Below the pieces are notes generated by a model, which was not told where the DNA came from, made no database searches, and was given only the letters and a program-made list of their open reading frames with translations. From positions 145,139 through 209,138 of the forward strand of contig CALKVK010000012.1 of the NCBI GenBank assembly GCA_937996235.1: a DNA stretch of 64,000 nt, in the 5' to 3' direction. Positions 19,691 through 36,641 of this stretch are shown piece after piece. The position numbers and the translations under genes are program-made. The stretch's first letter is position 1; each line of letters opens with the position of its first letter. Source of the stretch: an uncultured bacterium (lineage in GTDB: Bacteria > Planctomycetota > JAJSAM01 > JAJVHW01).

Positions 19691-19817
19691 GGAGCCCTCC
19701 CGGCGCGCGGCACGCGCGCCTCCCACATCCGCAGGGAGTCTACGGAGCCGGGACGCGGCGAATCCACCGTCGATTCGCTCCGTGAATGACGCAGCCTCGT
19801 GCGCGGAGGTCGGCACG

Positions 19818-20198: not shown

Positions 20199-20207
20199 CG
20201 GCCGTCG

Positions 20208-21386
20208 TCACCTCTTCTCGGTCTCGCGGTCCGGCGGCGCATTCGCCTCCACGGGCCGGAACGACATCGGGAAGGTCATCGCGAGGCGCAGGCCGAGGGT
20301 CGCGTCCTCGCCGATCGCCACGGGCCGCGGCACCGAGACGTCGATCGTCGTCGCGGGGTCCGCGACCCGCCCCCCGCCGAGTGCGTCGCCGCCCCGCAGA
20401 TCCACGCGCAGCTCGACGCCGACGCGCGGGGCTCCCTCCGCACCGTCGGCCCGCGCGACGCCGTTCGTGGGCCACGATCCGAACGCGCCGGGCCACGCGT
20501 CGCCGGCCCACCACGTGCCGCCGCGCGCGAGGCCCTCGAGCTGCGAGCGCTGCCACGCGCCGCCGGGGACCGGCCGCGCCGTGACGTACTGCCACTCCGC
20601 GATCGAGGGCACGCGCAGCTCGTGTCGTCCGAGCACCGCGGAGAGCTCCTCCCACGTGAGGGCGAACGACCCGTCGTCCGCGACGACGCGCGCAGGAGGA
20701 GCGGCGCCGTCGAGGAGCGGCTCGAGGAGGTGGTTCCACTGCGCGAGCGTCGTGGGGCTCCTGGCGACGAGGAACGACTGCAGCCGGACGTGACGCTCGA
20801 CGACGCGCGCGCCGTTGTTCTGGGCGGTGCGCGTCGCAGGCAGCTCGAAGCTCTGGTCGGCCTCGCCGCCGGGCACGAGCACCATCACGAGCGCGGGATC
20901 GTCGCCGTCCGGCACGCGCCCCGTCGCCGGGTCGCGCAGCCGGATCGTGCCGGAGCCGACGACCGCGAACTCGAGGAGCCCCGTCTCGGGATCCGGGCCG
21001 AGCGGCACGATCGACGGCGACGCCTCGATGTGGAACCAGTCCGGCGGGCCGGACTCGGCTGCGTCCCCGTCCGTCCCCCGCCAGAGCACGACGCTGAACA
21101 GGTCGGCGTAGCGCGCGTCGCGCGGCAGCTCGTTGCGCAGCGCGTCCCAGAGCGCCTCCTGCTCGCGGCGCGACAGCGTCTGCCGCAGGACGACGGGCGT
21201 GGTGTCGGGCGGCGGCTCCAGACCGGCGAAGCCCTGCGTGTCGGGACCGGCGACGGCGTCGGGCAGCTCCTCCCCGACGAGCGCGCGACCGAACGCGGCA
21301 GCCGAGCCCGCGGCGCGTCCGCGCGACTCCGCCCCGCACGCGGCGACGACGAGTGCCAGCGCGAGCGGAAGAGCGCGCCGCGTCAC
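20208..21386 (-). CDS. Lipoprotein with formylglycine-generating-enzyme (FGE-sulfatase/SUMF1-like) domain. Last gene of the central operon.
   Basis: GTG at 21386 gives VTRRALPLALALVVAACG (lipobox). FGE-like motifs SFLVARSPTTLAQWNHLL and RVPSIAEWQYVTA (compare LPTEAEWEYAAR). The start overlaps the upstream stop (GTGA). Confidence 0.75.
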   Translation of the reverse strand: MTRRALPLALALVVAACGAESRGRAAGSAAAFGRALVGEELPDAVAGPDTQGFAGLEPPPDTTPVVLRQTLSRREQEALWDALRNELPRDARYADLFSVVLWRGTDGDAAESGPPDWFHIEASPSIVPLGPDPETGLLEFAVVGSGTIRLRDPATGRVPDGDDPALVMVLVPGGEADQSFELPATRTAQNNGARVVERHVRLQSFLVARSPTTLAQWNHLLEPLLDGAAPPARVVADDGSFALTWEELSAVLGRHELRVPSIAEWQYVTARPVPGGAWQRSQLEGLARGGTWWAGDAWPGAFGSWPTNGVARADGAEGAPRVGVELRVDLRGGDALGGGRVADPATTIDVSVPRPVAIGEDATLGLRLAMTFPMSFRPVEANAPPDRETEKR

Positions 21387-21973
21387 GCGCTCTCCCGCGG
21401 CGCGCGCAGGCGCGAGGACACCGCGCGCACCCAGGTGTCGGCGGCGAGTGCGTCGCCGAGGCCCTCCGCGACGGCGACGAACTCGTAGAGGCGATGGCGC
21501 CGGCGGCGGAACGACGCCGCGACCGTCAGAGCGCAGCACGCCAGGAGACCGTGACCGACTCCGAGCAGCACGACGTCGACGGCGAAGGATGGCGAGACCA
21601 CCGTGGACGCCCCCGAGCCGAGGAGTGCGAACGCCGTCCGCAGCACCGCCCAGAAGAGCAGCAACTCCACGAGGATGCGCGCACGCGACGCCGCCTCGTG
21701 CCGCCGCGACTCCGCCAGCGTCACGAGCGTCGGGTGGACGCACGCGACCGCGCCGACGACGAGCCACGCGAACGTGCGCGGTCCCGGAGTCGCCGCGTCG
21801 AGCGACGCGCCGCACGCGGCCGCGGCGAGTGCGACGCACGCGGTCGTCGCGAGGGGGACGGCCCAACCGCGCGACGTCCCCGGACCGGGCGACGGCTCGC
21901 GCGGGGCGAGCAGTTCCTCCCAGAGCGCGAGGGGCGCGCTGACCGGCGTCGACGGGCGCGAGGTATCGCTCAC
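21383..21973 (-). CDS. Small multipass membrane protein (~196 aa).
   Basis: Only the C-terminal ~196 aa of track ORF 21383..26242 are protein-like, with TM helices (WAVPLATTACVALAAAACG, AWLVVGAVACV, LVELLLFWAVLRTAFALLG, VVLLGVGHGLLACCALTVAA). GTG at 21973 overlaps the upstream stop (GTGA). Confidence 0.6.
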   Translation of the reverse strand: MSDTSRPSTPVSAPLALWEELLAPREPSPGPGTSRGWAVPLATTACVALAAAACGASLDAATPGPRTFAWLVVGAVACVHPTLVTLAESRRHEAASRARILVELLLFWAVLRTAFALLGSGASTVVSPSFAVDVVLLGVGHGLLACCALTVAASFRRRRHRLYEFVAVAEGLGDALAADTWVRAVSSRLRAPRESA

Positions 21974-24900
21974 GCCGGGAGCGCCTCGCCGTGCTCCATG
22001 TCGTCCTCCAGATCGTCCTCCATGTCGTGCTCCGCCTGCTGCGCCTCGGCGGGCGAGCCGGCCTCGACCGCGGGCTCCGCCGTCTCGGCCCAGTCCAGCT
22101 CGACGTCCACGTCGAGCGCGTCCGAGCCCGTCGTCTCCGCTTCGGTCGCCCCGGCCGCCGCCGCGGCCTCCTGCGCGCGACGGCGCCGCGACATGACGAA
22201 CCCGATGGCGCCGCCGAGCACCGCGAGACCGATCCAGACGAGGAACGCCCAGCGCGCCACGTCCGCCATCCACGCCGTCGCGGCGGCGAGGGCGCGCAGT
22301 CCGAGCCACGTGCCCGCGCACGCCACGGCGACCACGACCAGCCGGCGCGGCGCGACGTCCACGGGCCGCAGCGCGCCGCGGCGTTCGTTGCGCACGTGGA
22401 CGAGGAGCGCCGCCCCCGCCGCCGCGAGGAACGCGCCGCCGACGGCCGTGCGCAGCACGCCGGGACTCGCCGCGGGCGCGAGCACGTCGAGGCGCCACGC
22501 GAGCAGCGCGAGCCAGCCGAGCGGCACGAGGTGCGCGGCCGCCCACACCGGCGGCGCGTACCGCGGTGCGTCGCGCGCCGCGGCGGCGCGCTCGGATGCG
22601 GGACGTTCGTCCGCGAGCAGCGCCGAGACGACACGGTCCACCGGCAGCGCCGACAGCGCGCGCTCGAGTCGCCCGGGTGCGACGGCGTCGGCGTGACGTC
22701 GCGCGCACGCCGCGGTCCGCGCGAGCACGACGACGAGCACGAGCACCTCGACGACGAGGAGCGCACGCCAGTCGTCCCACGTCGCCGCGCGCGCCGCGTC
22801 GAGGACGGCGCCCGACCCGCCGTGGTGGCCGAGCAGCGCGCCGACGTGCAGGAGCAGCAGCTCGGACGCGAAGAGCCACCAGCGTCCGCGCAGGTCGGAC
22901 CGCGCCGCGGAAGCGCCGCACCCGAGCGCGTACACCGCGACGACCGGCATGACGACGTCTCCGACGCCGAGCTGGGCGAGGCCCCACCCGAGCGCCCACG
23001 CGACACCGAACGTGCACGGCGGCGCAAGCCACCACGTGCGCTCGGGACGCCGCTGCGCATCCGCCGACGCGGCACGCGGAGCGCGCCGCAGCAGCGCGGC
23101 GACGGAGCGTCGCACGCGCACGCCGAGGCCGTCGTCGGCGAACCCCAGGAACACCGTGTCGCGCAGCGCGTCCGCGTCCGGGTCGTCGGCCGTGGCCGAG
23201 CGGCGCCGCGCCTCGGCGAGGCGGCGCAGCCACGGACGCTCCTCGACCGCCACCTCGAGAGCGTCCGGGTCGGACGCGGACGCCGGGACGAGCCACGCGA
23301 GGAAGCTCGCACGGATCTCGCGCGCGAGCGGCTCGGGGAGCGCTTCGGTCAGGTGGCGCCGCAGCCAGTCCGGGAAGACGCCCGCGCGCATCCACGGCAG
23401 CCGCACCAGCCGCGTGAGGTCGGCGGACGTCCACGCGTCGGAGCCGTCGGTGTGCGCGAAGACCAGGTCGCCGAGCCGCTGGGTGAGGCCGTGGTGCACC
23501 TGCGGGTACACGGCGCACGCGCAGAGCCATGCGTACGTCTGCGGTCCGAGATACGCGCGCAGTTCCGCCAGCACGCGCGCGACCTCGTGCTCGGGCGGCG
23601 ACCCCGACGCGAGCCAGCGCTCCGCGCCGGCGCGCAGCGTGGGCGGGAACGCGGCGCGCCCGCCCGCGCCGCGGTGCGCGTCGAACGCGGCGAGGTCGCC
23701 GGGCGCCGCCGCGCGCGCCGGGGTCTCGAGGGCCGCGACCGCGAGACCGTCGGCGAGGACGGCGCGCTCCTCGTGCGACCACTCGTCGCGCGCGGCCGGG
23801 ACCACGGCAGAGCGTTGCGCCCACGCGTCGAGCCCCGCGAGCCACGGTGCCGCGCCGCCGCGCGGATCCCGGAACGTGGACGCCTCCGCGAACACCAGCA
23901 GCCGCCGGTCGCGCAGGCGTCCGACGAGGTCGTCGAGCCGCTCGGCGCGCTCCCCGCCGCGGCGCCGCACGACGCGCGGATCGCGCGAGAACTCGAAGCG
24001 CTCGACGTGCACGCCCTCCGACTCCAGACGGTCGAGCACGGCTGCGACGTGGTCGGCCTGCGCGTCGGCGGCGCTGCGCCGATCGACGAGCGCGACGTAC
24101 TCCGGCGTCTGCGGACGCGAGCGCAGGACGGGCGTCGGCAGGCCGCCCGCGGCGACGGTGCGCTCCACGCTGCGTTCGACGTCGAGGTCGCCGGTCACGA
24201 CGTCGGCGTGTGTGCGCAGGCGCGCGATGTCGGCGCGCAGCGTCGGGGCCACCGCGGAGCCGCGCGTGTGCTGCGGCACGGTCAGGAAGGCCGGCCGCGC
24301 GTCGTCCGCGACGACGCCGCGCCGCACGTAGGCGCGCGCGATTCCGCGGCGCACGACGACGCCGACCAGGAACACGCCCGCCAGCGCGGCCACGAACGGC
24401 AGCGGCGACGGCGCGGGCGCGCCCACGCGCCACACGCGCAGCGTGCCGTCGAGCGACGACGTCGCGATGAACGCACCGTCGGGGCTGAAACGCGCGTCGG
24501 TCACGGCTCCCGTGTGACCGAGCAGCACGCGCTCGAGGGCGCCGGTCCGGGCGTCCCAGACGCGGGCCGTCATGTCGGCGCTCGCGGTGACGATGCGCGT
24601 GCCGTCGGGACTCCAGTCGCCTCCCGTCACCCAGCCGTCGTGTCCGCGCAGCGCCACCACGGCGCCGTTCGTCACGTCGTAGATCCGCGCGACGTCGTCG
24701 GTGCGCGTGACCAACAGGGAGACGGAGTCCGGCGAGAACGCGATGGTCGCCAGGTCGCCGCGCGGTCCGGACCACGCCCGCGCCTGCGACCCGGTACCTG
24801 CGTCGAAGGTCCGAAGCGTGCCGTCCTCCGCGACTGCGGCGATCCAGTCGCCCGACGGACTCCACGCCACGGCGTGAGCAGGCGATCCACCAGTCGGCAG

Positions 24901-26964
24901 ATCTGCAGCGGTGCTGCCCGTCACAGCATCGACCACGCGCACGAGCGCGTCGTCGCACGCAGCCGCGATTCGTCCGCCGTCCGGGCTCCACGCGATGTCC
25001 TTGGCGCCCTCCATCGACGAGAGCCAGCGGACCTCGGCGCCTGTCCGACCGTCGCAAACGTGGACGGTCGCAGTGTCGGAGAGCGCGATCTGCCCGCCGT
25101 CCGGGCGGAAGCGTACTCGCCAAACGATCCTCCAGCGACCGGTCAGGGGACTGCTGGAGGCGCCCGTGCGCGTATCGAACAGCGCGTACGTCGCCAGACG
25201 GGATCCGTCCGGGCTCCACGCCGCATCCACCACAGGGAGTTCGTGCGGGCCGACATGCACGACCGCATCCGCGCCCGCCGCTGCGAAGATGGACGCGGCG
25301 CCGCGGACGGAGAGCGCCGCGATCCTCGTTCCGTCCGGACTCCAGCGAAGTCCGCGCAGCCGGTCCGATCCGGGCGTCGAGCGCCACGTGACTGCGTCCT
25401 CGAGGTGGGTCACGTCGAAGAGCGTGGCCGACGGGGACTCGCCGACGACCACGCGTCTGCCGTCCGCGGCCCAGGCGACGGCGACTGCGCCAGCCGTCTC
25501 CGCCGCGGTGCTGCGCGAGTCCAGCTCTCCCAGTTGCTCTCCCGTCACCGTGTCCCAAACCCGGGCCCCGGCATCCGACGCCGTCGCGATCCGTGTTCCG
25601 TCCGGGCTGAACGAACACGCGCTGACGACGCCGTCGGGGCTGGAGAGCTCGACGCTCGGTGCATCGCCGCTCACGGGCCAGACGCGTGCACCCTGATCCG
25701 CATACGCGACGAACCGGCTGCCATCTGCGCTCCACGACGCTCCGTGCAGCATGCCGCGCTGGATCTCGACCTCCGCCACGGTCACCGGCGCCGGGCCCTC
25801 CACGTCCCACACGCGCACCGTGCCGCCCTCGGACGCGACGAGCAGCCGGCGCGTGCCGGCGTGCCACGCGATCGCGCGGATCGGGAGCGGATGCGCCTGC
25901 AGCGCAGCGAACTCCGGCTGTTCCTGCGACGCGCTCCAGAGCCGCACGCTGCCGTCCTCGCAGCCCGTCGCCACGCGGCCGCCCGACAGCCACGACACGG
26001 CGGTGACCGGGGACGCGCACTCGAGGACGCTCGCGGTCGTCCCGTCCGCAGCGCTCCAGACACGGGCCGTGCCGTCGTCGGAGCCGCTGACGACGTGTGT
26101 CCCCGCCGCGTTCCACTCCGCCGCACGCACACGTCCCGTGTGCTCTGCGTACCCGACCACGTTCCGACCCGACTCGACGTCCCACACGCGCGCCGTCCCG
26201 TCCTCGGACGCCGTCAGCACGCGCGTGCCGTCGGGACTCCACGCGGCCTGCGTCAGCCGCTTCGAGTGGCCGGCGAGGACCGCATCGCAGCCGCCGTCGA
26301 GGTCCCAGAGACGAGCCGTGCCGTCGTCCGAACCGGTCAACAGGTGCTGCCCCTGCGGCGAGAACGAGACGAACGTGACCGCGGACTCGTGGCCGAGGAG
26401 CACGGGCGGCGACCAGCGCGAGCGGGTCCGCTCCACGTCCACGACCTGGAAGTCCGCCGACGACGTCGCCGGCGGCGGCTCGACTCCGACCGATCGAACG
26501 ACCTGCTGCGGCGGTCCCGGCTCCGGCTCGACGACGGGGTCGGACTGCGGCGGCGTGGGCCGGAACACGTCGAGCGCCCAGAGCGCTGCGACGCCAAGGG
26601 CGAGCACGACGAGCACCGCGAGCGCGACGCGCACCGTGCGCGATCCCGGGGCGGGCGTCCGCGGCGGCGCGCGTCGCGCGGGCCCCCTGCCACGGTCCGC
26701 GGTCGGTGCGACCGCGGGTGCGCCGCCGCGCCGCAGGCGCTCGCGCAGGTCGCGCTGCTCGTGCGGCGAGCGCGCGATCAGCGGCGCGAGCCAGTCGGCG
26801 ACGTCGTCCGGCGTCTCCCCCGCGGCGCCGCGTGCGACGAGCGCGAGGAACGCCTCCTGCACGACCAGGTGCTCCTCGACGCCGACGCCCCAGCCCTCGC
26901 GCCGCAGCTCGCGCAGGAGCGCGTGCAGCGCGGCGAGGCGCTCGGAGTCGGCGGGACCGCTCAC
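21970..26964 (-). CDS. Giant WD40-repeat / multipass membrane protein (~1664 aa). N-terminal helical region, one TM, at least 12 WD40 blades, a long middle region, and a C-terminal polytopic membrane domain with an acidic tail.
   Basis: GTG at 26964 overlaps the MoxR stop (GTGA). Canonical WD40 units (GHSKRLTQAAWSPDGTRVLTASEDGTARVWDVESG and similar, repeated). C-terminal hydrophobic helices. Ends ...DDLEDDMEHGEALPA at 21970. Confidence 0.8.
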   Translation of the reverse strand: MSGPADSERLAALHALLRELRREGWGVGVEEHLVVQEAFLALVARGAAGETPDDVADWLAPLIARSPHEQRDLRERLRRGGAPAVAPTADRGRGPARRAPPRTPAPGSRTVRVALAVLVVLALGVAALWALDVFRPTPPQSDPVVEPEPGPPQQVVRSVGVEPPPATSSADFQVVDVERTRSRWSPPVLLGHESAVTFVSFSPQGQHLLTGSDDGTARLWDLDGGCDAVLAGHSKRLTQAAWSPDGTRVLTASEDGTARVWDVESGRNVVGYAEHTGRVRAAEWNAAGTHVVSGSDDGTARVWSAADGTTASVLECASPVTAVSWLSGGRVATGCEDGSVRLWSASQEQPEFAALQAHPLPIRAIAWHAGTRRLLVASEGGTVRVWDVEGPAPVTVAEVEIQRGMLHGASWSADGSRFVAYADQGARVWPVSGDAPSVELSSPDGVVSACSFSPDGTRIATASDAGARVWDTVTGEQLGELDSRSTAAETAGAVAVAWAADGRRVVVGESPSATLFDVTHLEDAVTWRSTPGSDRLRGLRWSPDGTRIAALSVRGAASIFAAAGADAVVHVGPHELPVVDAAWSPDGSRLATYALFDTRTGASSSPLTGRWRIVWRVRFRPDGGQIALSDTATVHVCDGRTGAEVRWLSSMEGAKDIAWSPDGGRIAAACDDALVRVVDAVTGSTAADLPTGGSPAHAVAWSPSGDWIAAVAEDGTLRTFDAGTGSQARAWSGPRGDLATIAFSPDSVSLLVTRTDDVARIYDVTNGAVVALRGHDGWVTGGDWSPDGTRIVTASADMTARVWDARTGALERVLLGHTGAVTDARFSPDGAFIATSSLDGTLRVWRVGAPAPSPLPFVAALAGVFLVGVVVRRGIARAYVRRGVVADDARPAFLTVPQHTRGSAVAPTLRADIARLRTHADVVTGDLDVERSVERTVAAGGLPTPVLRSRPQTPEYVALVDRRSAADAQADHVAAVLDRLESEGVHVERFEFSRDPRVVRRRGGERAERLDDLVGRLRDRRLLVFAEASTFRDPRGGAAPWLAGLDAWAQRSAVVPAARDEWSHEERAVLADGLAVAALETPARAAAPGDLAAFDAHRGAGGRAAFPPTLRAGAERWLASGSPPEHEVARVLAELRAYLGPQTYAWLCACAVYPQVHHGLTQRLGDLVFAHTDGSDAWTSADLTRLVRLPWMRAGVFPDWLRRHLTEALPEPLAREIRASFLAWLVPASASDPDALEVAVEERPWLRRLAEARRRSATADDPDADALRDTVFLGFADDGLGVRVRRSVAALLRRAPRAASADAQRRPERTWWLAPPCTFGVAWALGWGLAQLGVGDVVMPVVAVYALGCGASAARSDLRGRWWLFASELLLLHVGALLGHHGGSGAVLDAARAATWDDWRALLVVEVLVLVVVLARTAACARRHADAVAPGRLERALSALPVDRVVSALLADERPASERAAAARDAPRYAPPVWAAAHLVPLGWLALLAWRLDVLAPAASPGVLRTAVGGAFLAAAGAALLVHVRNERRGALRPVDVAPRRLVVVAVACAGTWLGLRALAAATAWMADVARWAFLVWIGLAVLGGAIGFVMSRRRRAQEAAAAAGATEAETTGSDALDVDVELDWAETAEPAVEAGSPAEAQQAEHDMEDDLEDDMEHGEALPA

Positions 26965-27956
26965 GCGCCCCCGCGCCCCGCCTTCCACGTCGCGAAGATG
27001 CGACGCGCCGCCGCGAGATCCTCCTGGCCCTTCACGAGCGTTCCGAGGTCGCCGTCGGCCGACGCGGCGAGCGGGTTCGCGACGCCTTCCCCGGCGGAGC
27101 GCCGCAGCGCGGCGAGCCAGTCGATGAGCTCGGACGTCGCCGGCGGCTTGCGCAGGGGCGGCCGCGCGTCGCGCAGCGCACGGAAGAGCGCGAGCGCGTC
27201 CTTCACGAAGGCGCTGCCGGGCGCCGCCCAGGAGCCGAGGCGGCTCACGAGGATCTCGCCGAGGCGCTCCTCGTCGGGGAACTCGATGTGGTGGTAGACG
27301 CAGCGGCGCAGGAACGCGTCCGGCAGGTTGCGCTCGGAGTTGCTCGTCACGATGACGATCGGGCGCAGCGCGGGGTCCGCGGCGATCGCCGCGATGCCGA
27401 GCTCCGCCACGCGGAACTCCATCCGCTCGATCTCGGCGAGCAGGTCGTTCGGGAAGTCGCGCGGCGCCTTGTCGACCTCGTCGATCAGCACGACGCTGCG
27501 CCGCGGACCGTCGTGTGCGAACTCCGACGGCAGCCACGTCGCGACCTCGCCCGACTCGCGCGACAGCAGCACCGCGCGGCCGAGCGCCTCGTAGCGCAGG
27601 AAGCGCAGCCCGTCGGCGAGCGAGCTCCCGCCCGCGTCGCGCGCGTGGAAGCGGCCGAGCGCGTCGTACGTGTAGAAGAGGTGCCGCGCCTCGCTCGTCG
27701 ACTTCGTGTCGAAGCGCAGCGGCGCGCCGAGCCGCAGCTCCCACGCCACGCTGTAGGCGAGCTGCGTCTTGCCGGTGCCCGGTTCGCCGGTGAGCAGCAG
27801 CGGGCGGCCGAGCAGGATCGCGAGGTCCACGGCGCGGCGCAGCCGCGCGTCCACGCGGTAGCCGGCGGGGTCCTCCGCACGCGCGCGATCGACGGACGGC
27901 AGGTCGACGGCCGGCGCCTCGCGACGCTCGCCGCTCCCGCGGTAGATCATGTCCAT
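26961..27956 (-). CDS. MoxR-like AAA+ ATPase (AAA_5 family, 331 aa).
   Basis: Walker A LLLTGEPGTGKT; Walker B VVLIDEVDKA; sensor and arginine-finger region IVIVTSNSERNLPDAFLRRC. Length is typical of MoxR. Confidence 0.9.
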   Translation of the reverse strand: MDMIYRGSGERREAPAVDLPSVDRARAEDPAGYRVDARLRRAVDLAILLGRPLLLTGEPGTGKTQLAYSVAWELRLGAPLRFDTKSTSEARHLFYTYDALGRFHARDAGGSSLADGLRFLRYEALGRAVLLSRESGEVATWLPSEFAHDGPRRSVVLIDEVDKAPRDFPNDLLAEIERMEFRVAELGIAAIAADPALRPIVIVTSNSERNLPDAFLRRCVYHHIEFPDEERLGEILVSRLGSWAAPGSAFVKDALALFRALRDARPPLRKPPATSELIDWLAALRRSAGEGVANPLAASADGDLGTLVKGQEDLAAARRIFATWKAGRGGA

Positions 27957-27969
27957 GGGCAGTCCTCCG

Positions 27970-29220
27970 TCATCCAGGGGTGCGGAGCCTCTCGCGCAGG
28001 ATGCGGCTCAGCGCCTGCGCGACCGGATCGAGCGGCGAGCGCTGCGTCGCCGGCAGGGCTCGCGCGAGGTCCTGCTCGGGCAGGCGCCGCTGCTGCAGCA
28101 GCCCGAGCACGCGCGGATGCCGCGCCCACGCGGTCACGTCGGCGAAGTCCACGTCGTCGAGCTCGGGCAGCAGCGCGACACGGCCGCCCGCCGCGTGACG
28201 CCGCGCGAGGTCCGTGAGAGACGCGCGGACGCCGTCCGCGAGCTTTCTGTCCCGTTCGTCGAAGCGCACCCACGGCACGACGACGGCCGGCGCCGTGCGG
28301 TGCACGGGCGCCCACGCGGCGAGGCGCGAGACCACGGCATCGAGGCAGCGCGGCGTCGCGTCCGCGTCCCAGCGGCAGAACGGCACCTCGCTGGTCACGA
28401 GCAGCGCGCTCGGCCACGCGCCGGCGGCGTCCGCGGCGGCGGCGTGGCCGCGCGCGCCGAGCGCCTCCGCGAGGCGCTGCTCGAAGCGGCGCACGCACGC
28501 CGCGGGGTCCGTCTCGCGCGGCCACTCCACGTCCACCGCGTGCACGACGTCGCCCGCAGGTGCCGACGCGAAGTCCGCGAGCAGCTCGTCGCGCACGCGG
28601 TCCAGGAACTGCTCGTGCGCCTGGGCGAAGCGGCCGTGCAGCAGCCAGACGAACGGCCGCGACACGTCGAGGGCGGGAACCGCGGCGAGGTCGCGCAGCG
28701 CGTCGCGTTGCGGCGTCCGGTCGCACAGGTAGGGCAGCGCCGGCGGCACGGGGTCGTGGCTCCCGATCGCGGTGTTCAGGTCCGCGAGGACGTCGCTGTG
28801 GAGCGCTTCGACCGTGGCGAACGGCTTCGACGTGTGCCGCTGGCAGATGAGAGCGCGAAACGCCCGCGCCCGCTCGGCCTCGGCACGGCCGAACCCCAGG
28901 AAGCCGGCGCGCGGCTCGGCCTCCGTGTGGAAGAACAGCATCTGCTCGACGTCCGCGGCGCACGCGGTCTCGTACTCGAGATGGGTGATGCTGCGCCCTT
29001 CGTGGCCGTCGGGCACCCAGCCGTAGCGGCGTCCCAGCAGCAGGACGAACGCGTCACAGTTCCGCACGTCGGTGGTGCACTTCGCGACGACCGTGCGCCT
29101 GTCGGATCCGTAGTCCTCCATGCCGATCGGCTGGTGGCCGAGGCGCAGGATGGCCGCGCGCACCGCCGCCCGCGCCTCGCGCAGGTCCTGGAACGTCGAG
29201 GAGACGTACACGCGAGCCAC
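27970..29220 (-). CDS. DUF4062 domain protein (416 aa) with a C-terminal extension of unknown function.
   Basis: N-terminus MARVYVSSTFQDLREARAAVRAAILRLGHQPIGMEDYG...CDAFVLLLGRRYGWVP...ITHLEYETA matches the DUF4062 signature as I recall it. Non-biased composition. Confidence 0.8.
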   Translation of the reverse strand: MARVYVSSTFQDLREARAAVRAAILRLGHQPIGMEDYGSDRRTVVAKCTTDVRNCDAFVLLLGRRYGWVPDGHEGRSITHLEYETACAADVEQMLFFHTEAEPRAGFLGFGRAEAERARAFRALICQRHTSKPFATVEALHSDVLADLNTAIGSHDPVPPALPYLCDRTPQRDALRDLAAVPALDVSRPFVWLLHGRFAQAHEQFLDRVRDELLADFASAPAGDVVHAVDVEWPRETDPAACVRRFEQRLAEALGARGHAAAADAAGAWPSALLVTSEVPFCRWDADATPRCLDAVVSRLAAWAPVHRTAPAVVVPWVRFDERDRKLADGVRASLTDLARRHAAGGRVALLPELDDVDFADVTAWARHPRVLGLLQQRRLPEQDLARALPATQRSPLDPVAQALSRILRERLRTPG

Positions 29221-29263: not shown

Positions 29264-30166
29264 TCAGAGTCCGAGTCTGTCGCGCAGCCGGGCGACGACC
29301 GCCGGCTGTGCGAGGTACTGCGCGATGCCGTGGCGCCAGGCGCCGGAGTTCGAGACGCGCACGTCCGCGACCGTCTCCTCGCCGTCGGCGAGGTAGTCGT
29401 TCGCGAGCACGGTGTCGAAGCCGCACACGGGATCGAGCCGGTCGTAGACGTTCGTCCACGCGCCGAGTGCGAGCTTCGCGCTCGGGTACGCGGTGTCGTA
29501 CTCCCACGCGTCGCCGAAGCCGTCCTGCACCTCGGACAGGCCGAGCGGGCTGCCGATCGTGAACAGCGCCGCGACGCCGGGCGTGTCGGCCACGTGCCGC
29601 AGGCAGTCGTACGCGATCACGGTGCCCATGCTGTGCGAGACGACGACGTGCGGCCCGGCCGCCGGGGGGACCGCGCGCAGAGCGGCGACGAAGCGCTGCC
29701 GGATCTCGCGCCGGACGCGGTACGTGACGCCGGGGCGCGGCCGCGACTCGGCGTCGTAGAGGTAGTGGTGGCAGTCGCGCAGGAGCCGCCGCATGAGGAT
29801 TTTCTCGAGGAAGTGCGGCAGCGGGACCGCGCGCTCGGACGCCGCGGCGAACGTCGCCCCGCCCTCGCGGATCGCCTCCTCCGCGAGCTCCTCGGTGCGG
29901 CGGCGGAGCGCGGCGACGAACGCGCGCTCGACGACGTCCGCACCGACTGCGAGCAGCTCGTCCTCCTCCGGCGCCGCGCCGCGCTGCGCCGGGTCCTCGG
30001 CCTCGGGCCGCGCGTAGAGCACGTCGGCCCAGTACACCATCGAGCTCGTCACGCCGCGCGCCGACAGGTCGAGCCCGCCCTGGCGCAGCGCCGCGAGCCA
30101 CTCCGCGAGGAGCACGTCCTGCGGCGGCTTGTTCAGGAGTCCGTGGACGAACGTCACGTGGGGCAT
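29264..30166 (-). CDS. Alpha/beta-hydrolase fold protein (lipase/esterase-like, 300 aa).
   Basis: Nucleophile elbow VVVSHSMGTVIAYD (GxSxG-type). Conserved downstream Asp/His candidates. Confidence 0.8.
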   Translation of the reverse strand: MPHVTFVHGLLNKPPQDVLLAEWLAALRQGGLDLSARGVTSSMVYWADVLYARPEAEDPAQRGAAPEEDELLAVGADVVERAFVAALRRRTEELAEEAIREGGATFAAASERAVPLPHFLEKILMRRLLRDCHHYLYDAESRPRPGVTYRVRREIRQRFVAALRAVPPAAGPHVVVSHSMGTVIAYDCLRHVADTPGVAALFTIGSPLGLSEVQDGFGDAWEYDTAYPSAKLALGAWTNVYDRLDPVCGFDTVLANDYLADGEETVADVRVSNSGAWRHGIAQYLAQPAVVARLRDRLGL

Positions 30167-30197
30167 GGGGTCCTCCGGGATGGCGTGGCGGCGCGCG

Positions 30198-33100
30198 TCA
30201 CGCGCGTCCCTCCACCGTGGACAGTGCGGCCGCCAGCGCGGCGAGGTCGGCGGCGTCGCGGCGTCCCGCGGCGGTCTCGGGAGCGAGTTCGCCGAGGGTC
30301 GCGAGCTGCGTCAGGACGGAGTCGCGCTCGCGTGGCGAGGCGCCGCGCGCCGCCGCGCCGAAGCACTCGCGTATCCGCGCGACGCGCGCTCCGAGTGCGT
30401 GCCCGGCGAGCGCGTGCAGGATCTCCATGTCGACGACGGCGAGCTGCCACCACACGTCACGGCGCGCCTCCGGCACCTGCGCGTGGTCCTGACGCGCCGC
30501 GTCGAGGACCGCGCGGACGACGCGCGCCGAGCGCCGGAGGGCCCACAGCAGTGCGGCCTGGTTGCACGCGGGGTAGTAGCCGGCGCCGGGCCGCCCGCGG
30601 GCGGCGAGCTCGACACCGCGCGCGTACTCGCGCTCGGCCTGGGCGAGCAGACGACGACGCTCGCGTCCGACGGCGTGCGTCGCCCGGCGCTTGAACGCGC
30701 CGCCCACGAGCGATGCGCGCTCGCACGTCGGCGGCGCGATCGCGTCGAGCGCGCGGCAGCGCTCGATCGCCGTCTCCCAGAGCTGGCGCGCGCGCGCGAG
30801 CCGTGCGGCGTCCGCGCCGCCGCCCGCGATGCGATGCGCGAGCCGGTCCTCGAAGTTCGCGAGCTGCTCGATGTCCTCGACGCGCAGCGCGGAGCCGTCG
30901 CTCGCGAGCGCCGCGCGCAGATCCGCGACGGCCTCCTCGAAGTCGCCGAGCTCGCCGCGCAGGCGCCCGCGCGCCACGAGCACGCGCGCGCTGAGCCACT
31001 CCGGACGCAGCGCGGCGTCCACCTGCGCGAGACGGCTGCGCACACGCTCCGCCGAATCCGCGCTCGGCCGGCGCAGGTTGTGGAGACCGATGCGCAGCAC
31101 CGCGAGCTCCTCCGCCACCTCGCGCTCCGACACGTAGCGCGGCACCTCGCCGCCGCGCCACGGCGCGGACGTCAGCCGGAAGTGCGGGTCGCCGTAGCAC
31201 TGGAACGCGCCCCACGTCGTGCTCCCGAGCTCGTGCGCGGAGCGGCGCGCCGCGCTCACGGCGTCGCCGAACGTCTCGCCGTCGAGCAGGCGTTCGTAGA
31301 ACGCGGTCGCGAACGCGCGCGCGGCGGCGTCGTCCACGGCCCACCCCGCGACGACCAGGCAGCGCACGCCGATGCGCATCAGCTCGACGGCGACGCTCGC
31401 GGCGAAGCGGCCGTGCTGCGGCTCGTCGGTCCGGCCCAGGTGGCAGCAGCTCAGGAACACGAGCGAGGGGCACGCGGGGAGCTGACGGATGACGTCGGCC
31501 GTCAGCCGCACGTCGTCGCCGATCACCACGCCGGTGCGCGCGGGGTCCGCGGCGTCGAAGGTGCCGTGCGCGGCGACGTGCACCACCACGTAGTCGTTCG
31601 CGTAGAGGCGCTGCAGCACCGCGGACGCGTCCTCGTCGATCGACGTCTCGACGACGTACCGGGCGCGGGTGAGCTGCTGCGAGACGCGCACGGCCTCGGC
31701 GCGCGCCCCCGGCAGGTCCGCGAACGCCGGCGCCTGCGGCGTGCCGACGACGAGCACCGCGCCGCCGCGCGCCGGCTCGACGACCTCGGCGGCGCTGCGA
31801 TCGCGGAACTGCCGCACGACGCCGAGCAGCGCCGGCGACGCGCCGTCGTCGCTGCGCCGGCGCATCAGCAGCTCCCACGGGTAGCGCGCGGTCAGCGGGT
31901 CCACGACGAGCACGAGCTCGCCGGCGTCCGCGATCTCCTCCTTGAAGGGACCGGGCACCAGCAGGTCGAACAGCGTGTGCGAGATGGAGTCGGGCGCGAT
32001 GCCGCTCGTCGTGCGCTCCGTCGCGCGCAGGAACGCATCCACGAGAGTGTGGATCGTGGGCTGCGTGATGACGGGCGCCCGCGCGCGATCGGTCACGTAG
32101 AGGTACTCGAGTCCCGTGGTGCGCGCGGCGTCGCCCGCGTCCTCCTCGCGCCGCGCGCTGACGTGCAGGCGATTCCACCAGCGGTCCGCCGCGGCCCCCG
32201 TGCGGCCGCCGGGACGGCCGTCGCGCCCGATCACGAGCGCGTCGTCCGCGTGCACGTCCGGGAGCCCGCCGCTCTGCCGCGCGCGCTCGCGCGCCGCGTC
32301 GACCAGCGCCCGTGCCGCCGCCACGGCCACGTCCTCGCTCAGCTCGACGAACTCGAGCCGCGCGATGCGCGCGCCGGCGTTCGGACCGTCCGGCTCCGCG
32401 AGCCGCGCGTTGACGCGCACGACCGCGTCGAGGATCGCCGCGATGGACTCGCGCACGTCGAGCGCCCGGCCGCCGCGCGTGCCGATCAGGAGCGACGACA
32501 GCGTGAGCTCGTGCGGCGTGCCGTCGCCGCGCGCGTCCGCGGCGCGGAGCGCCCACTCGAGGACGCCGGCGTGCACCGTGCGCCGCAGCCGCCGCGGCGT
32601 GAGGTCGCCGACGTCGCCGAGCCCCACCACGATCGCGCCCGGCGGACGGCCGGCAGCGCCGTCTTCCGCGGGCGGCGCGTCCACGACGAGCACGTCGCCG
32701 ATGCGCCCCGGGTACTGCCGCACGGCGAAGCGCCGCGCGAGCCGCCCGTCGAGACGCGAGTCGAGGTAGCGCTCGGCGCCGAACAGGCCGTCGCCCTCGT
32801 AGTGGCCCACGAGCACGGGACCGTGCGCGGCGTGCAGACTGCCGTGCACGACCTCCGCACGCAGCTGCGGCCCGACGACGGCCTCCTCGTCGCCGAGCAC
32901 GCGCGCTGCGAGCAGTCCCACGACGCCGTCCTCGGGCGGGAACGTGGACGCGGCCGCGACGATCGTCTCCGGCCGCACGGGAGGACGCGGCGGCACGCGC
33001 GCGGAGACTCCCGCCTCGAGCAGGTCGCGGATGCCCGCGACGAGATCCGCGGCGGACGGCAGCCGCTCGTGGCGCGCGGCCAGCCAGCGCGCCGTGGGGC

Positions 33101-35447: not shown

Positions 35448-35568
35448 CCTCCACCTCCCGGGGCCGCGCGGTCACGCGCCTCCCCGTGCGCAACGTCGTC
35501 CCCCACTCCCGGGGACGCCGCGAAGATACACGAAGCGAGGGAGCGAGCGCCGCCGTCGAATTCACGCC

Positions 35569-36471
35569 TCAGCGCGCGCGGAAGGTGTCGTTGGCCCCCG
35601 GGACGCGCGCGAGATCGAGTTCGAGTCGCACCGCCGCAGCGCCCTCGCCGACGACGGCGCCCAGCGCATATGCGCCGTAGACGAGGACCTCGCAGCGCGC
35701 CGTCGTGCGAGTCGTTGCGCTCGGTGGACCGTCGGCCCTGGACAGCGTCTCCGGGTCGTGGCAGAAGCGGATGGCACTGGGGAGCGGTCGATCGGGGTCG
35801 ACCGTCCGCACGCACGCGTGGACTCGGAACCAGTGCTGGGAGCCGACCTCGCGGCCGCGCGCGGGGTCGGGAGGCGGCAGCGGCTCCACACGCGCGCTGA
35901 GCAGGTACGGATGGACGAACGCGCGCCGGCCGAACTGCCCGCGATTGCGGTCCTCCACGCAGGTGCGTCCCGTGACCGTCAGCGCATCGAGCAGGATGAA
36001 GCACTCGAGGTGCGTGCGCAGTTCCGCCGCCGACGCGTAGCGCAGCACGCGGAAGCCCTGCACGTCGAAGTGGACGTCGTCGCCCGCGCGCACGACGTGG
36101 ACGACCGGGCGGCCGATCGCGTGCGCGAAGCCGAGCTCGTAGTAGCAGTTCGGCCGCGCGTGCGTCAGGTCGGCGATGACGAAGTCGGCGCCGCGGATCG
36201 CGTCGCGGATCTCGTCGATCATCTGTCCGCCGGACGGCAGCTCGTCCATGCGGTACGAGCGGAACCCGAACCGCCTCGCCGCGGGCGCGATCGCCTCGTG
36301 ACGCACCGCGCGCAGCTCCGGCGTGTCGGCGAACGACGAGATCACGAAGCAGTAGGGCTCGTCGGGGTCGAACGGCACGGGTGCCCCGGCGCAGGGCTCC
36401 GGCGCCGCGGCATCGGCGACGCCGCTCGCCTCCGGCTGCGACGCAGCCGGCTTCCGTCTCGCCGTCCCCAT
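35569..36471 (-). CDS. TIR-like / nucleoside 2-deoxyribosyltransferase-like Rossmannoid domain protein (~300 aa).
   Basis: ATG at 36471 (MGTARRK...). Motifs CFVISSFADT ... ADFVIADLTHARPNCYYELGFAHAIGRPVV match the D..NPNV.YELGYA..LGKPV signature of NDT/TIR-like domains. A 121-bp gap separates it from the giant CHAT gene downstream. Confidence 0.7.
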   Translation of the reverse strand: MGTARRKPAASQPEASGVADAAAPEPCAGAPVPFDPDEPYCFVISSFADTPELRAVRHEAIAPAARRFGFRSYRMDELPSGGQMIDEIRDAIRGADFVIADLTHARPNCYYELGFAHAIGRPVVHVVRAGDDVHFDVQGFRVLRYASAAELRTHLECFILLDALTVTGRTCVEDRNRGQFGRRAFVHPYLLSARVEPLPPPDPARGREVGSQHWFRVHACVRTVDPDRPLPSAIRFCHDPETLSRADGPPSATTRTTARCEVLVYGAYALGAVVGEGAAAVRLELDLARVPGANDTFRAR

Positions 36472-36641
36472 GCGCACCTCCCGACACACGGCGTGCCCTG
36501 CGCGGTCCGGGCGACTCCACTCGCCGGGCCCGCTCGTCGCAGCGAGGATGCCCGGACGCACCGCTCCGCGTCCACACTCGAACCGCGCCGCCGTGCGGCG
36601 AGGCTCCGCAGATCGCCGCCGCCCGGGCTACCCTCCCGCGC

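What the first reader, a model, noticed from the sequence alone, without database searches (positions are those of the whole stretch)
21383..27956. MoxR partnered with a WD40/multipass-membrane giant instead of a vWA protein, plus a small membrane protein and an FGE-sulfatase lipoprotein, all with GTGA start/stop overlaps
MoxR ATPases normally pair with a vWA-domain protein. Here the downstream partner is a 1664-aa protein with at least 12 WD40 blades, one internal TM, a long linker and a C-terminal polytopic domain. It is followed by a 196-aa membrane protein and a lipoprotein carrying an FGE-sulfatase (SUMF1-like) fold. In bacteria that fold is frequently a non-enzymatic ligand- or peptidoglycan-binding module attached to kinases and caspases. 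Strict translational coupling implies fixed stoichiometry and a membrane or periplasm-spanning complex.
Basis: partly seen in the sequence, partly recalled or inferred. Interest (0 to 1): 0.65.

Follow-up and report, generated by a model that had tools for sequence, protein, structure and literature searches.

The report
Membrane-bound MoxR-vWA-iSTAND conflict system
The giant WD40 protein beside the MoxR ATPase does carry a hidden, divergent vWA domain, so this locus is a membrane-anchored member of the already predicted "iSTAND ternary" anti-invader systems. It is unusual mainly for putting two WD40 propellers in the periplasm and encoding its lectin-like module as a separate lipoprotein.

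Summary
The ORFs, the three GTGA overlaps, the WD40 repeats and the membrane segments are real. The central interpretation, MoxR paired with a WD40 giant instead of a vWA protein, is wrong.

The gene just upstream (27970-29220) encodes a DUF4062 + inactive-STAND (iSTAND) protein. MoxR relatives elsewhere sit in the same triad of iSTAND, MoxR and a large membrane protein. The window's giant is homologous to that third protein in its N-terminal helical domain (res 1-95) and its "linker" (res 926-1277). The linker holds a divergent CoxE-type vWA-like domain. Evidence: 12 of 65 family members hit Pfam VWA_CoxE (best E = 1e-6), the AF2 model shows a six-strand alpha/beta topology, and the top Foldseek hit is NorD.

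So this is the iSTAND class of MoxR-vWA ternary conflict systems (Kaur et al. 2020). Three things are unusual:
- About 16 WD40 repeats fill the periplasmic loop between two TM helices. That loop is 15-210 aa in 96 relatives.
- The C-terminus is polytopic.
- The FGE-sulfatase-like module is a separate, Cys-less and therefore non-enzymatic lipoprotein.

DUF4062 is now known to be a TIR-like NADase. The likely logic is periplasmic sensing, then MoxR/vWA remodelling, then NADase activation. It is a new member of a known but untested kind, of moderate interest.

The parts
27970..29220 (-). DUF4062 (TIR-like NADase domain, res 3-86 = nt 28963-29214) fused to an inactive STAND domain (res 163-254 = nt 28459-28734). 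This is the 'third component' of the ternary system and the predicted effector.
   Evidence: Pfam DUF4062 E = 2.1e-25. Pfam iSTAND E = 7.1e-7, 30.2 bits against a cutoff of 24. No Walker A motif. The SITHLEYE motif is shared with DUF4062-iSTAND proteins of relatives. Homologues lie upstream of MoxR in 43 fetched loci. An 11-nt spacer with GGAGGA precedes the MoxR ATG.
26961..27956 (-). MoxR-clade AAA+ ATPase, 331 aa, predicted active (Walker A GEPGTGKT at res 57-64, Walker B VVLIDE at res 155-160).
   Evidence: Pfam AAA and AAA_5. AF2 pLDDT 91. Foldseek top hits are NorQ and CbbQ, E = 1.7e-9 to 4e-8. Motifs. More than 7,500 homologues, many of those listed named MoxR.
21970..26964 (-). Giant 1664-aa 'vWA component' of the system. 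The whole gene starts with a GTG that overlaps the MoxR stop codon.
   Evidence: Homology to the protein that follows MoxR in relatives.
26680..26964 (-). N-terminal helical domain of the giant (res 1-95), cytoplasmic. It corresponds to the 4-helical CoxE-type N-domain described for iSTAND-system vWA proteins.
   Evidence: phmmer with res 1-112 hits 56 of 96 relatives, E down to 1e-12. Description in PMC7159879 section 20.
26572..26628 (-). TM1 (res 113-131).
   Evidence: Hydropathy 2.81. 6 K/R and 0 D/E in the 20 aa before it, 1 K/R and 4 D/E after it.
24415..26412 (-). About 16 WD40 repeats (res 185-850, probably two propellers), inserted in the TM1-TM2 loop and predicted to be periplasmic.
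   Evidence: Pfam WD40 E = 1.4e-81. 16 periodic motifs. Topology. Relatives' loops are 15-210 aa and hold CarboxypepD_reg or TonB_C domains.
24352..24408 (-). TM2 (res 853-871).
   Evidence: Hydropathy 2.25. 6 K/R in the 20 aa after it.
23725..24189 (-). Divergent CoxE-type vWA-like alpha/beta domain (res about 926-1080). Beta1 is EYVALVD961, followed by RRS. Beta4 is RLLVF, followed by A-E1027. The MIDAS motif is degenerate.
   Evidence: AF2 topology, pLDDT 75-87 over this part. Foldseek top hit is NorD vWA, E = 0.044, prob 0.85, plus integrin I domains. VWA_CoxE is hit by 6 of 17 and 12 of 65 family members, best E = 1.1e-6. There is no direct Pfam hit for the window segment itself.
23134..23724 (-). 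Conserved helical, Trp-rich domain that follows the vWA-like domain (res 1081-1277). Family-specific, function unknown.
   Evidence: Alignment A1 with invariant motifs (YLG..W, LPW.R...PDWLR, LRD..FL.F). Helical in the AF2 model.
22195..23034 (-). C-terminal polytopic membrane region (res about 1311-1590, roughly 6-8 hydrophobic segments), followed by an acidic tail.
   Evidence: Hydropathy. No homologue among the relatives. No meaningful Pfam hit.
21383..21973 (-). 196-aa small membrane protein (4-5 hydrophobic segments). It is coupled by GTGA overlaps on both sides.
   Evidence: No homologue in Pfam, NCBIfam, PADLOC or the fetched loci.
20208..21386 (-). 392-aa lipoprotein (lipobox Cys17) with a degenerate FGE-sulfatase/FGS (C-type-lectin-like) module. 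The firmly homologous part is res 101-269 (nt 20580-21086). It has no catalytic cysteines.
   Evidence: 888 homologues at E<=1e-3. The ten best that were checked all carry Pfam FGE-sulfatase. An HMM built without the lipoprotein matches res 101-269 at 1.1e-37, and the only Cys is C17. Relaxed hhalign lines up the AFG / RGG / G-L-R motif order in the C-terminal half at low confidence.
29264..36627 (-). Possible accessory module on the same strand with short gaps: TIR-like protein (35569-36627), CHAT + DUF7379 + TPR-S giant (30198-35447) and an alpha/beta-hydrolase-like protein (29264-30166).
   Evidence: Pfam and PADLOC hits. Junctions. The caspase + alpha/beta-hydrolase pairing is a described accessory theme (PMC7159879). 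It is not conserved beside relatives' triads, so whether it belongs to this system is uncertain.

Best explanation
IDENTITY. The locus is an iSTAND-class MoxR-vWA 'ternary' conflict (anti-invader / abortive-infection type) system that is built into the inner membrane. The gene order is DUF4062-iSTAND, then MoxR, then the vWA component, then a small membrane protein, then an FGS lipoprotein.

SHOWN BY THE DATA
- The triad and its homology to many other triads.
- The MoxR-clade fold of the ATPase.
- The vWA-like alpha/beta domain and the family-specific N-terminal domain inside the giant.
- The Cys-less FGS-like lipoprotein.
- Predicted, not demonstrated: an N-in / loop-out / core-in topology, from the positive-inside rule and from envelope domains in relatives' loops.

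INFERRED MECHANISM
1. The roughly 16-blade WD40 array in the periplasmic TM1-TM2 loop acts as the ligand-binding sensor for an envelope-level cue. Candidate cues are phage adsorption or injection, cell-wall damage, or a competitor's product. The translationally coupled FGS lipoprotein and the small membrane protein probably take part.
2. The TM hairpin passes the change to the cytoplasmic N-helical and vWA-like domains.
3. The MoxR hexamer uses ATP to remodel that assembly. This is the thresholding step.
4. The DUF4062-iSTAND protein is released or oligomerised. Its TIR-like NADase then depletes NAD+ and arrests or kills the cell.
For: TRIAD
- iSTAND + DUF4062 lies immediately upstream of MoxR.
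- The same order is seen around five MoxR homologues, with variable iSTAND N-termini: DUF4062, none, TIR_2, TIR, DUF4145.
- MoxR lies directly upstream of the vWA-component homologue in 71 of 79 loci. An iSTAND homologue was detected in 31 of 71 loci by single-sequence phmmer, which is a lower bound.
- This matches the description of the iSTAND class in PMC7159879 section 20.

MOXR
- AF2 pLDDT 91, with top structural hits NorQ and CbbQ.
- Walker A and Walker B are intact.

vWA COMPONENT
-.

TOPOLOGY
- K/R counts are 6, 1, 2 and 6 around TM1 and TM2.
- Relatives carry CarboxypepD_reg or TonB_C in the same loop.
- After a post-core TM helix they carry FGE-sulfatase, PEGA or WD40+PASTA. WD40 is thus a recurrent extracytoplasmic module in this family.

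EFFECTOR
- DUF4062 is an experimentally shown TIR-like NADase in phage defence (bioRxiv 10.64898/2026.05.01.722283; see also 2026.06.25.731849 and 2026.09.04.749371).
- The domain is full length here and keeps the SITHLEYE motif.

SENSOR-TO-EFFECTOR DIRECTION
- This follows the model proposed for vWA-CLec proteins in MoxR ternary systems (bioRxiv 10.1101/2023.09.22.558884).

COUPLING
- GTGA overlaps.

GENOMIC SETTING
- CHAT, TIR-like and STAND-like kinase genes lie nearby.
Against: - I found no experimental study of any iSTAND ternary system. Function and signal direction are therefore inference.
- The vWA assignment for the window protein itself is weak. There is no direct Pfam hit. The AF2 model has mean pLDDT 62. 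No Foldseek hit reaches E<=1e-3. Profile searches against PDB sequences were negative.
- The MIDAS motif is degenerate. The window has D961-R-R-S instead of DxSxS, and Glu1027 where beta4 normally ends in Asp. The beta1 Asp is not invariant across the family either. The classical metal-dependent peptide capture may therefore not apply.
- Export and folding of a 720-aa WD40 array in the periplasm are predicted only from hydropathy and charge. I had no dedicated topology predictor and there is no experiment.
- The 196-aa protein and the polytopic C-terminus have no homologues.
- The organism is unknown, so the link to a multicellular habit cannot be checked.
- The catalytic Glu of DUF4062 was mapped by motif only.
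Confidence: 0.6

Rival explanations
1. Same system with the opposite polarity (the original Kaur et al. logic). The cytoplasmic iSTAND protein, or its DUF4062 domain, senses the invader. MoxR/vWA sets the threshold. The variable parts of the vWA component are then the effectors: the polytopic C-terminus, the periplasmic WD40 array and the FGS lipoprotein. They would act by disrupting the membrane or by physical containment and cell-wall binding.
For: - PMC7159879 calls the variable domains of the vWA component 'effectors'. It notes peptidoglycan-associated domains behind TM segments in iSTAND systems.
- The giant carries a unique polytopic C-terminal region that could form a pore.
- Several relatives also end in multi-TM regions.
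Against: - DUF4062 is a demonstrated NADase executioner domain, which fits an effector better than a sensor.
- WD40, FGS, PEGA, PASTA and TonB_C are binding modules, not toxic ones.
- In some relatives the FGS module is diversified by a DGR, as expected for a ligand sensor.
Confidence: 0.2
2. A housekeeping MoxR-vWA chaperone pair, in the manner of NorQ/NorD, CoxD/CoxE or RavA/ViaA, that assembles or maintains an envelope complex. It would have no role in biological conflict.
For: - The closest solved structures to the ATPase are NorQ and CbbQ, which are maturation chaperones.
- A NorB-type gene is present elsewhere in the window.
- The locus is chromosomal, with metabolic genes nearby.
Against: - The ATPase belongs to a distinct family that is almost always preceded by an iSTAND protein carrying TIR, DUF4062 or another immune-type N-terminus.
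- The partner's accessory domains are hypervariable and sometimes DGR-targeted.
- The norB-like gene is 24 kb away.
- CHAT and TIR-like genes are adjacent.
Confidence: 0.1
3. One reading: MoxR works with a WD40 / multipass giant that lacks any vWA domain, which would be a new MoxR partner class.
For: - No Pfam, NCBIfam or PADLOC vWA hit for the window protein itself.
- The MIDAS residues are not canonical.
Against: - The 'linker' is homologous to the vWA component of iSTAND triads.
- Family members hit VWA_CoxE.
- The AF2 topology and the best fold matches are vWA.
- The WD40 block is an insertion in a loop that is short in 96 relatives.
Confidence: 0.04

Closest known systems
iSTAND ternary systems (MoxR-vWA subsystem 2 of Kaur, Burroughs, Iyer & Aravind 2020, eLife 9:e52696; PMC7159879)
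   Same: - The three-gene core is the same: an iSTAND protein with an N-terminal TIR-type enzymatic domain, a short MoxR without extensions, and a vWA component.
- The vWA component has the 4-helical N-domain, N-proximal TM segments and a variable remainder.
- FGS is the commonest accessory domain of the class.
- The class is membrane-proximal and linked to the cell wall.
   Different: - The accessory WD40 array sits in the TM1-TM2 loop, N-terminal to the vWA domain, rather than at the C-terminus.
- The C-terminus is a unique polytopic region.
- The FGS module is a separate lipoprotein gene, and there is an extra 196-aa membrane protein.
- The MIDAS motif is degenerate.
- None of this was seen in 96 sampled relatives.
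Beta-propeller-containing MoxR-vWA ternary systems (subsystem 4 of the same paper)
   Same: A beta-propeller is fused to a divergent vWA component that may lack the MIDAS aspartates. The setting is membrane-proximal.
   Different: [quoted passage not shown]
- Their third component has TPR and propeller regions, not iSTAND.
- Their MoxR often has the P-loop GxxxTAKS. Here the P-loop is GEPGTGKT and the third component is iSTAND.
NorQ/NorD and CbbQ/CbbO (structurally solved MoxR-vWA chaperone pairs)
   Same: They are the best structural matches for the ATPase. NorD is the weak top match for the vWA-like domain. The presumed hexameric motor acts on a vWA partner.
   Different: Those are soluble metalloenzyme or Rubisco maturation factors with canonical MIDAS motifs. 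They have no iSTAND partner, TM segments or sensor-type domains.
DGR-diversified vWA-CLec (FGS) targets in MoxR ternary systems (Dore et al., bioRxiv 10.1101/2023.09.22.558884 / PMC10907252)
   Same: The vWA protein is proposed to be the antigen sensor that signals through MoxR to an effector. Some targets place the lectin domain in the periplasm. A relative of the window's system (L002) has exactly this arrangement, with bAvd + RT.
   Different: No reverse transcriptase hit and no template repeat for the lipoprotein gene were found in the window. Here the FGS module is a separate, degenerate lipoprotein, and the main candidate sensor is WD40.
DUF4062 NADase defence proteins (Swarozyc, Evangelion) and TEP1 / NWD1-type DUF4062-STAND-WD40 proteins
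   Same: The same TIR-like NADase domain sits at the N-terminus of a STAND-type module. WD40 propellers are the candidate ligand sensors.
   Different: - Here the STAND module is inactive (no Walker A).
- The ATPase is supplied in trans by MoxR.
- The WD40 array is on a different, membrane-spanning polypeptide on the other side of the membrane.
- None of the three DUF4062 papers mentions MoxR, vWA or iSTAND.

Membership tests
iSTAND ternary system (Kaur et al. 2020) | MoxR-clade AAA+ ATPase without the VMAP-type N- and C-terminal extensions | tested here: met
   331 aa. AF2 pLDDT 91. Best PDB folds are NorQ and CbbQ. Walker A and B are intact. The Pfam MoxR model (AAA_3) did not hit; only AAA and AAA_5 did.
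iSTAND ternary system (Kaur et al. 2020) | An adjacent third component with a catalytically inactive STAND domain | tested here: met
   Pfam iSTAND at 30.2 bits, above the cutoff of 24. No GK[ST] motif anywhere in the protein. Homologous to the proteins upstream of MoxR in 43 loci.
iSTAND ternary system (Kaur et al. 2020) | A signalling, peptidase or EAD domain at the N-terminus of the iSTAND protein (TIR / DRHyd class and others) | tested here: met
   Full-length DUF4062, E = 2.1e-25, now shown to be a TIR-like NADase. Whether it equals the paper's 'DRHyd' was not established.
iSTAND ternary system (Kaur et al. 2020) | A vWA component with a 4-helical CoxE-type N-domain, often with N-proximal TM segments and a variable remainder | tested here: met
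   Homology of the N-domain and core to the family. TM hairpin. vWA-like topology. Family link to VWA_CoxE, 12 of 65 members, best E = 1.1e-6.
Canonical vWA domain | MIDAS motif: DxSxS after beta1 and Asp at the end of beta4 | tested here: not met
   The window has VD961-R-R-S-A and FA-E1027. The family consensus is D-R-x-S with a variable first Asp (D/N/G/E) and a variable beta4 residue. The fold is vWA-like but the metal site is probably altered.
Canonical vWA domain | Six-stranded alpha/beta Rossmann-like fold recognisable by structure comparison | tested here: inconclusive
Formylglycine-generating enzyme (FGE/SUMF1) | Catalytic cysteine pair in the C-terminal CxxxxC-type motif | tested here: not met
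   The lipoprotein has a single Cys, the lipobox Cys17. It is not an FGE enzyme.
FGE-sulfatase / FGS (C-type-lectin-like) domain | Sequence homology across the whole domain | tested here: inconclusive
   The N-terminal extension and first half (res 101-269) are clearly homologous: 1.1e-37 to an HMM built from FGE-sulfatase proteins. The second half aligns only at low confidence with preserved motif order. There is no direct Pfam hit.
WD40 beta-propeller | Repeated WD40 units detected by a profile | tested here: met
   Pfam WD40 E = 1.4e-81, 9 significant stretches. 16 periodic units.
iSTAND ternary system (Kaur et al. 2020) | Occurrence in organisms with a multicellular or social habit | not testable with these tools
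The proteins are singletons from one 216-kb contig. The 75% GC content and the kinase / sigma-54 content only suggest a myxobacterium-like genome.

The most novel reading that the evidence does not exclude
The locus could be a split, trans-membrane counterpart of TEP1 / NWD1 / APAF-1-type immune receptors.
- In those proteins, NADase, STAND ATPase and WD40 sensor lie on one cytoplasmic chain.
- Here the WD40 sensor would sit in the periplasm on a vWA membrane protein.
- The STAND module has lost its ATPase.
- A MoxR motor would supply the energy in trans.

This would be an outside-in innate-immune signalling device. It would detect an invader at the cell envelope and trigger cytoplasmic NAD+ depletion before, or without, entry of foreign DNA. 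The FGS lipoprotein would act as a co-receptor.
Probability: 0.2. Interest if true: 0.7.

Novelty: new member of a known kind. Interest (0 to 1): 0.38.

Why it matters
iSTAND and VMAP ternary systems are widespread computational predictions. I found no experimental study of them, and the literature disagrees on which component senses and which kills.

This locus separates the candidates by compartment. The binding modules (WD40 and the FGS lipoprotein) are predicted to be periplasmic. The only enzymatic killer domain, the DUF4062 NADase whose biochemistry was established in 2026, is cytoplasmic. The MoxR/vWA pair sits between them. That makes the direction of signalling testable with simple topology reporters and point mutants.

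The locus also links the newly characterised DUF4062 NADase family to MoxR-vWA-iSTAND systems. The three DUF4062 papers I checked do not mention this link.

For annotation, it shows that a missing Pfam vWA hit next to a MoxR gene is not evidence that the vWA partner is absent.

Tried and rejected
- Direct profile searches of the giant's N-terminus, 'linker' and C-terminus, and of the lipoprotein and the 196-aa protein (Pfam at E<=10, NCBIfam, PADLOC) found nothing useful.
- A word-indexed protein search with the Ala/Arg-rich linker returned nothing, probably swamped by low-complexity words. It worked only when seeded with an alignment that included lower-GC relatives, and then returned 10 proteins.
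- Profile searches of the vWA region against PDB sequences gave no vWA hit. There was an odd E = 0.0026 local match to a lipase-related chain, which I treated as a strand motif.
- I looked for a DGR template repeat matching the lipoprotein gene. There was only noise, best 46 bp at 78%. None of the window ORFs I scanned with Pfam hit a reverse transcriptase, but I did not scan every ORF.
- Promoter and terminator scans of 19500-37000 gave no promoter-like site and one terminator-like site, within the number expected from shuffles.
- Exact-sequence look-ups for the source contig failed.
- The NCBIfam 'MadB family AAA-type ATPase' lead scored 85.6 bits, far below its cutoff of 475. I could not trace it in the literature, so I rejected it as a membership claim.
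- PADLOC TRIP13, IetA and mad8 hits cover only the P-loop and were rejected.
- phmmer with the 196-aa protein, the lipoprotein, the hydrolase and the TIR-like protein found no counterparts beside relatives' triads.

Full report
WHAT IS THERE

The window has about 75% GC, so long spurious ORFs abound. Third-position GC singles out a run of co-directional minus-strand genes:
- TIR-like protein, 35569-36627
- CHAT giant, 30198-35447
- alpha/beta-hydrolase-like protein, 29264-30166
- 416-aa protein, 27970-29220
- AAA+ ATPase, 26961-27956
- 1664-aa giant, 21970-26964
- 196-aa membrane protein, 21383-21973
- 392-aa lipoprotein, 20208-21386

Products of exactly 331, 1664 and 392 aa with these sequences are on record in a public protein collection. 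The last three junctions all read GTGA, with the start GTG overlapping the stop TGA. The 416-aa gene ends 11 nt before the ATPase's ATG, with a GGAGGA in between.

Its stated span omits the lipoprotein gene, and it overlooked the 416-aa gene.

DOMAIN CALLS

- ATPase. Pfam gives only AAA and AAA_5. Sequence search of PDB gives only weak midasin and spastin hits. An AF2 model built on 48 homologues has pLDDT 91. Its best PDB matches are NorQ and CbbQ, both MoxR-clade motors that work with vWA partners (E = 1.7e-9 to 4e-8). Walker A (GEPGTGKT) and Walker B (VVLIDE) are intact. 'MoxR' is therefore right.
- WD40. The giant has WD40 repeats at E = 1.4e-81, and I count about 16 units between res 185 and 850.
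- TM helices. Two strongly hydrophobic helices flank the WD40 block (res 113-131 and 853-871). The C-terminal 350 aa are polytopic.
- No direct hits. Neither the N-terminal 185 aa, the 440-aa 'linker', the 196-aa protein nor the lipoprotein hits any Pfam, NCBIfam or PADLOC model, even at E<=10.

THE KEY TO THE LOCUS IS THE UPSTREAM GENE

The 416-aa protein is DUF4062 (E = 2.1e-25) followed by Pfam 'iSTAND', an inactive STAND domain (30.2 bits, cutoff 24). It has no Walker A motif.

The ATPase has more than 7,500 homologues, and the closest non-self one is only 57% identical. I fetched five of their contigs. In every one the ATPase is preceded by an iSTAND protein with a variable N-terminus (DUF4062, none, TIR_2, TIR, DUF4145). 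In four it is followed by a large ORF or, in L021, a run of shorter called genes with no Pfam domain in the front part; in the fifth (L020) the contig ends just after the start of the next gene.

This is the 'iSTAND ternary system' of Kaur et al. 2020 (PMC7159879, section 20). It consists of an iSTAND protein, a MoxR and a vWA component. The vWA component has a 4-helical CoxE-type N-domain, often N-proximal TM segments, and a variable effector region in which the FGE-sulfatase-type (FGS) domain is the commonest.

THE GIANT IS THAT vWA COMPONENT

- The downstream proteins of two relatives (828 and 956 aa) align with the giant's res 926-1277 at 36% and 28% identity, with many invariant residues. 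Their N-termini resemble the giant's first 90 aa.
- Pattern scans seeded with this alignment returned 16 genomic and 80 metagenomic loci.
- In these loci MoxR lies directly upstream in 71 of 79 cases with enough flank. An iSTAND homologue was detectable by single-sequence phmmer in 31 of 71.
- The giant's N-terminal 112 aa hit 56 of the 96 proteins.

IS THE CONSERVED CORE REALLY A vWA DOMAIN?

For the window sequence itself the evidence is indirect:
- An AF2 model (11-sequence alignment, mean pLDDT 62, but 75-87 over the relevant part) shows beta1-alpha-beta2-beta3-alpha-beta4-alpha-beta5-alpha-beta6, followed by a helical domain.
- Foldseek against PDB puts the NorD vWA domain of the NorQD complex first, and also lists integrin I domains and the Ku alpha/beta domain. 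The best E is 0.044, and TIR / flavodoxin-like folds are interleaved.
- Scanning family members one by one, Pfam VWA_CoxE is the only recurrent hit: 6 of 17 members, then 12 of 65, with best E = 1.1e-6.
- Profile searches against PDB sequences found no vWA.

My conclusion is a divergent CoxE-type vWA-like domain at res about 926-1080. Its metal site is not canonical: D961-R-R-S rather than DxSxS, and Glu1027 where beta4 normally ends in Asp. These positions vary across the family.

WHAT IS UNUSUAL HERE

In the 96 relatives the conserved core starts no later than residue 432 of the protein. The two TM helices are separated by 15-210 aa. In the window the core starts at residue 926, because about 720 aa of WD40 fill that loop.

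The positive-inside rule places the loop outside the cytoplasm. There are 6 K/R and no acidic residue before TM1, 1 K/R and 4 D/E after it, and 6 K/R after TM2. This is forced in any case, because the N-domain and the vWA domain must be on the side of the ATP-dependent MoxR.

Relatives support an extracytoplasmic loop:
- Longer loops carry CarboxypepD_reg domains (L062, L092, L097) or a TonB_C domain (L085).
- After a further TM helix, C-terminal tails carry FGE-sulfatase, PEGA, or WD40 followed by PASTA.

WD40 occurs in about 10 of the 96 relatives, but always C-terminal to the core. So WD40 is a known periplasmic accessory module of this family, and only its position in the loop is new. The polytopic C-terminus and the 196-aa protein have no counterparts.

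THE LIPOPROTEIN

An exhaustive HMMER search found 888 homologues at E<=1e-3. The ten best that I checked all carry Pfam FGE-sulfatase, often fused to Ser/Thr kinases.

An HMM built from 25 of them, without the lipoprotein, matches its res 101-269 at 1.1e-37. That stretch is a conserved N-terminal extension plus the first half of the FGS domain, up to the LPTEAEWEY-type motif. The second half aligns only at low confidence, although the AFG / RGG / G-L-R motifs appear in the expected order.

The protein's only cysteine is the lipobox Cys17. The catalytic Cys pair of true FGEs is therefore absent.

In relatives the FGS domain is fused to the vWA component behind a TM helix, and in Aetokthonos it is next to a DGR (bAvd + RT). 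Here it is supplied in trans as a periplasm-facing lipoprotein. I found no template repeat in the window.

HOW IT PROBABLY WORKS

Three 2026 preprints show that DUF4062 is a TIR-like NADase that executes abortive infection. The window's copy is full length and shares the invariant SITHLEYE motif with other iSTAND-fused copies.

- The only enzymatic 'killer' domain of the five-gene core is therefore cytoplasmic.
- The ligand-binding modules (WD40 and FGS) are periplasmic.
- The MoxR/vWA pair lies between them.

I therefore favour the sensor-to-effector direction proposed by Dore et al. for vWA-lectin proteins: the envelope cue binds WD40/FGS, the TM hairpin passes on the change, MoxR remodels the N-domain / vWA / iSTAND assembly with ATP, and the NADase is activated.

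It remains possible. A housekeeping chaperone role is unlikely given the immune-type partners and the hypervariable accessories. All mechanistic steps are inference. I found no experimental work on any iSTAND ternary system.

SURROUNDINGS

Upstream on the same strand lie a CHAT + DUF7379 + TPR-S giant, an alpha/beta-hydrolase-like protein and a TIR-like protein. Kaur et al. note that caspase-superfamily genes in these systems always have an alpha/beta-hydrolase neighbour. These genes are not conserved beside relatives' triads, so I list them as possibly associated. A second CHAT-TPR protein and a kinase-AAA_16-TPR protein lie nearby, which suggests a conflict-gene neighbourhood in a myxobacterium-like genome. 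The organism could not be identified.

VERDICT

The headline interpretation (no vWA partner) is wrong. The secondary ideas (a non-enzymatic FGS module and a complex spanning membrane and periplasm) hold.

The locus is a new member of a known, computationally defined kind. Its architecture was not seen in 96 relatives. It is of moderate interest, chiefly as a clean test case for the direction of signalling in MoxR-vWA ternary systems and as a link between these systems and the DUF4062 NADases.

Noticed in passing
window 29264-36627 (- strand): A TIR-like / nucleoside-deoxyribosyltransferase-like protein (PADLOC TIR effector E = 8.5e-11), a 1749-aa CHAT + DUF7379 + TPR-S protein and an alpha/beta-hydrolase-like protein lie directly upstream of the iSTAND gene, with gaps of 30-120 nt. 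The caspase + hydrolase pairing matches an accessory theme of ternary systems, but it is not conserved beside relatives' triads.
   Followed up: partly
window 13261-16260 (-) and 36180-40259 (+): A second CHAT-TPR protein and a Ser/Thr kinase-AAA_16-TPR (STAND-like) protein flank the region. This suggests a cluster of conflict or signalling genes.
   Followed up: no
window 18115-19816 (- strand): Two or three consecutive small lipoprotein-like ORFs, each with its own lipobox. Two share the motif IFTTxxxxGVELxA just after the lipobox. They lie downstream of the operon, beyond a convergent 199-aa ORF (19599-20198, +).
   Followed up: no
window 24800-25400: Third-position GC of the giant drops to 0.80-0.84 inside the WD40 block, against 0.90-0.96 in the rest of the gene. 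This could reflect a more recent acquisition of the insert, or repeat-specific codon usage.
   Followed up: no
L020 1-7261 and 7560-10188: In a Blastocatellia MAG, the TIR_2-iSTAND / MoxR pair closest to the window's MoxR (57% identity) sits next to a contractile-injection-system gene cluster (sheath, tube, gp19-like, Pvc16_N).
   Followed up: no
L002 8859-15429 (= L018): In Aetokthonos hydrillicola, the iSTAND / MoxR / vWA-FGS triad is followed by bAvd and a reverse transcriptase. This is a DGR that presumably diversifies the periplasmic FGS domain.
   Followed up: partly
L062, L092, L097, L085, L017 (vWA-component ORFs): The TM1-TM2 loop of this protein family is a second variable site, carrying CarboxypepD_reg or TonB_C domains. 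C-terminal tails carry FGE-sulfatase, PEGA or WD40+PASTA. The loop as an insertion site is not mentioned in the parts of Kaur et al. that I read.
   Followed up: partly
window 26961-27956: The best NCBIfam hit of the ATPase is 'MadB family AAA-type ATPase' (NF047784) at 85.6 bits, far below the cutoff of 475. I could not find what the Mad system is in the held literature.
   Followed up: partly
window 23900-24120 (giant res about 940-985) and alignment A6: The family profile around GGW..P...PEYLVLiDR gives a local E = 0.0026 match to PDB 10xn_A ('triacylglycerol lipase related protein'). It is unexplained and probably a shared strand-loop motif.
   Followed up: no
window 40260-45482 (+), 51553-54033 (-): The rest of the window is ordinary chromosome: a large NAD-specific glutamate dehydrogenase, a NorB-like nitric-oxide reductase, a sigma-54 activator and a Na+/H+ exchanger. 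The conflict locus is therefore chromosomal, not on an obvious mobile element.
   Followed up: no
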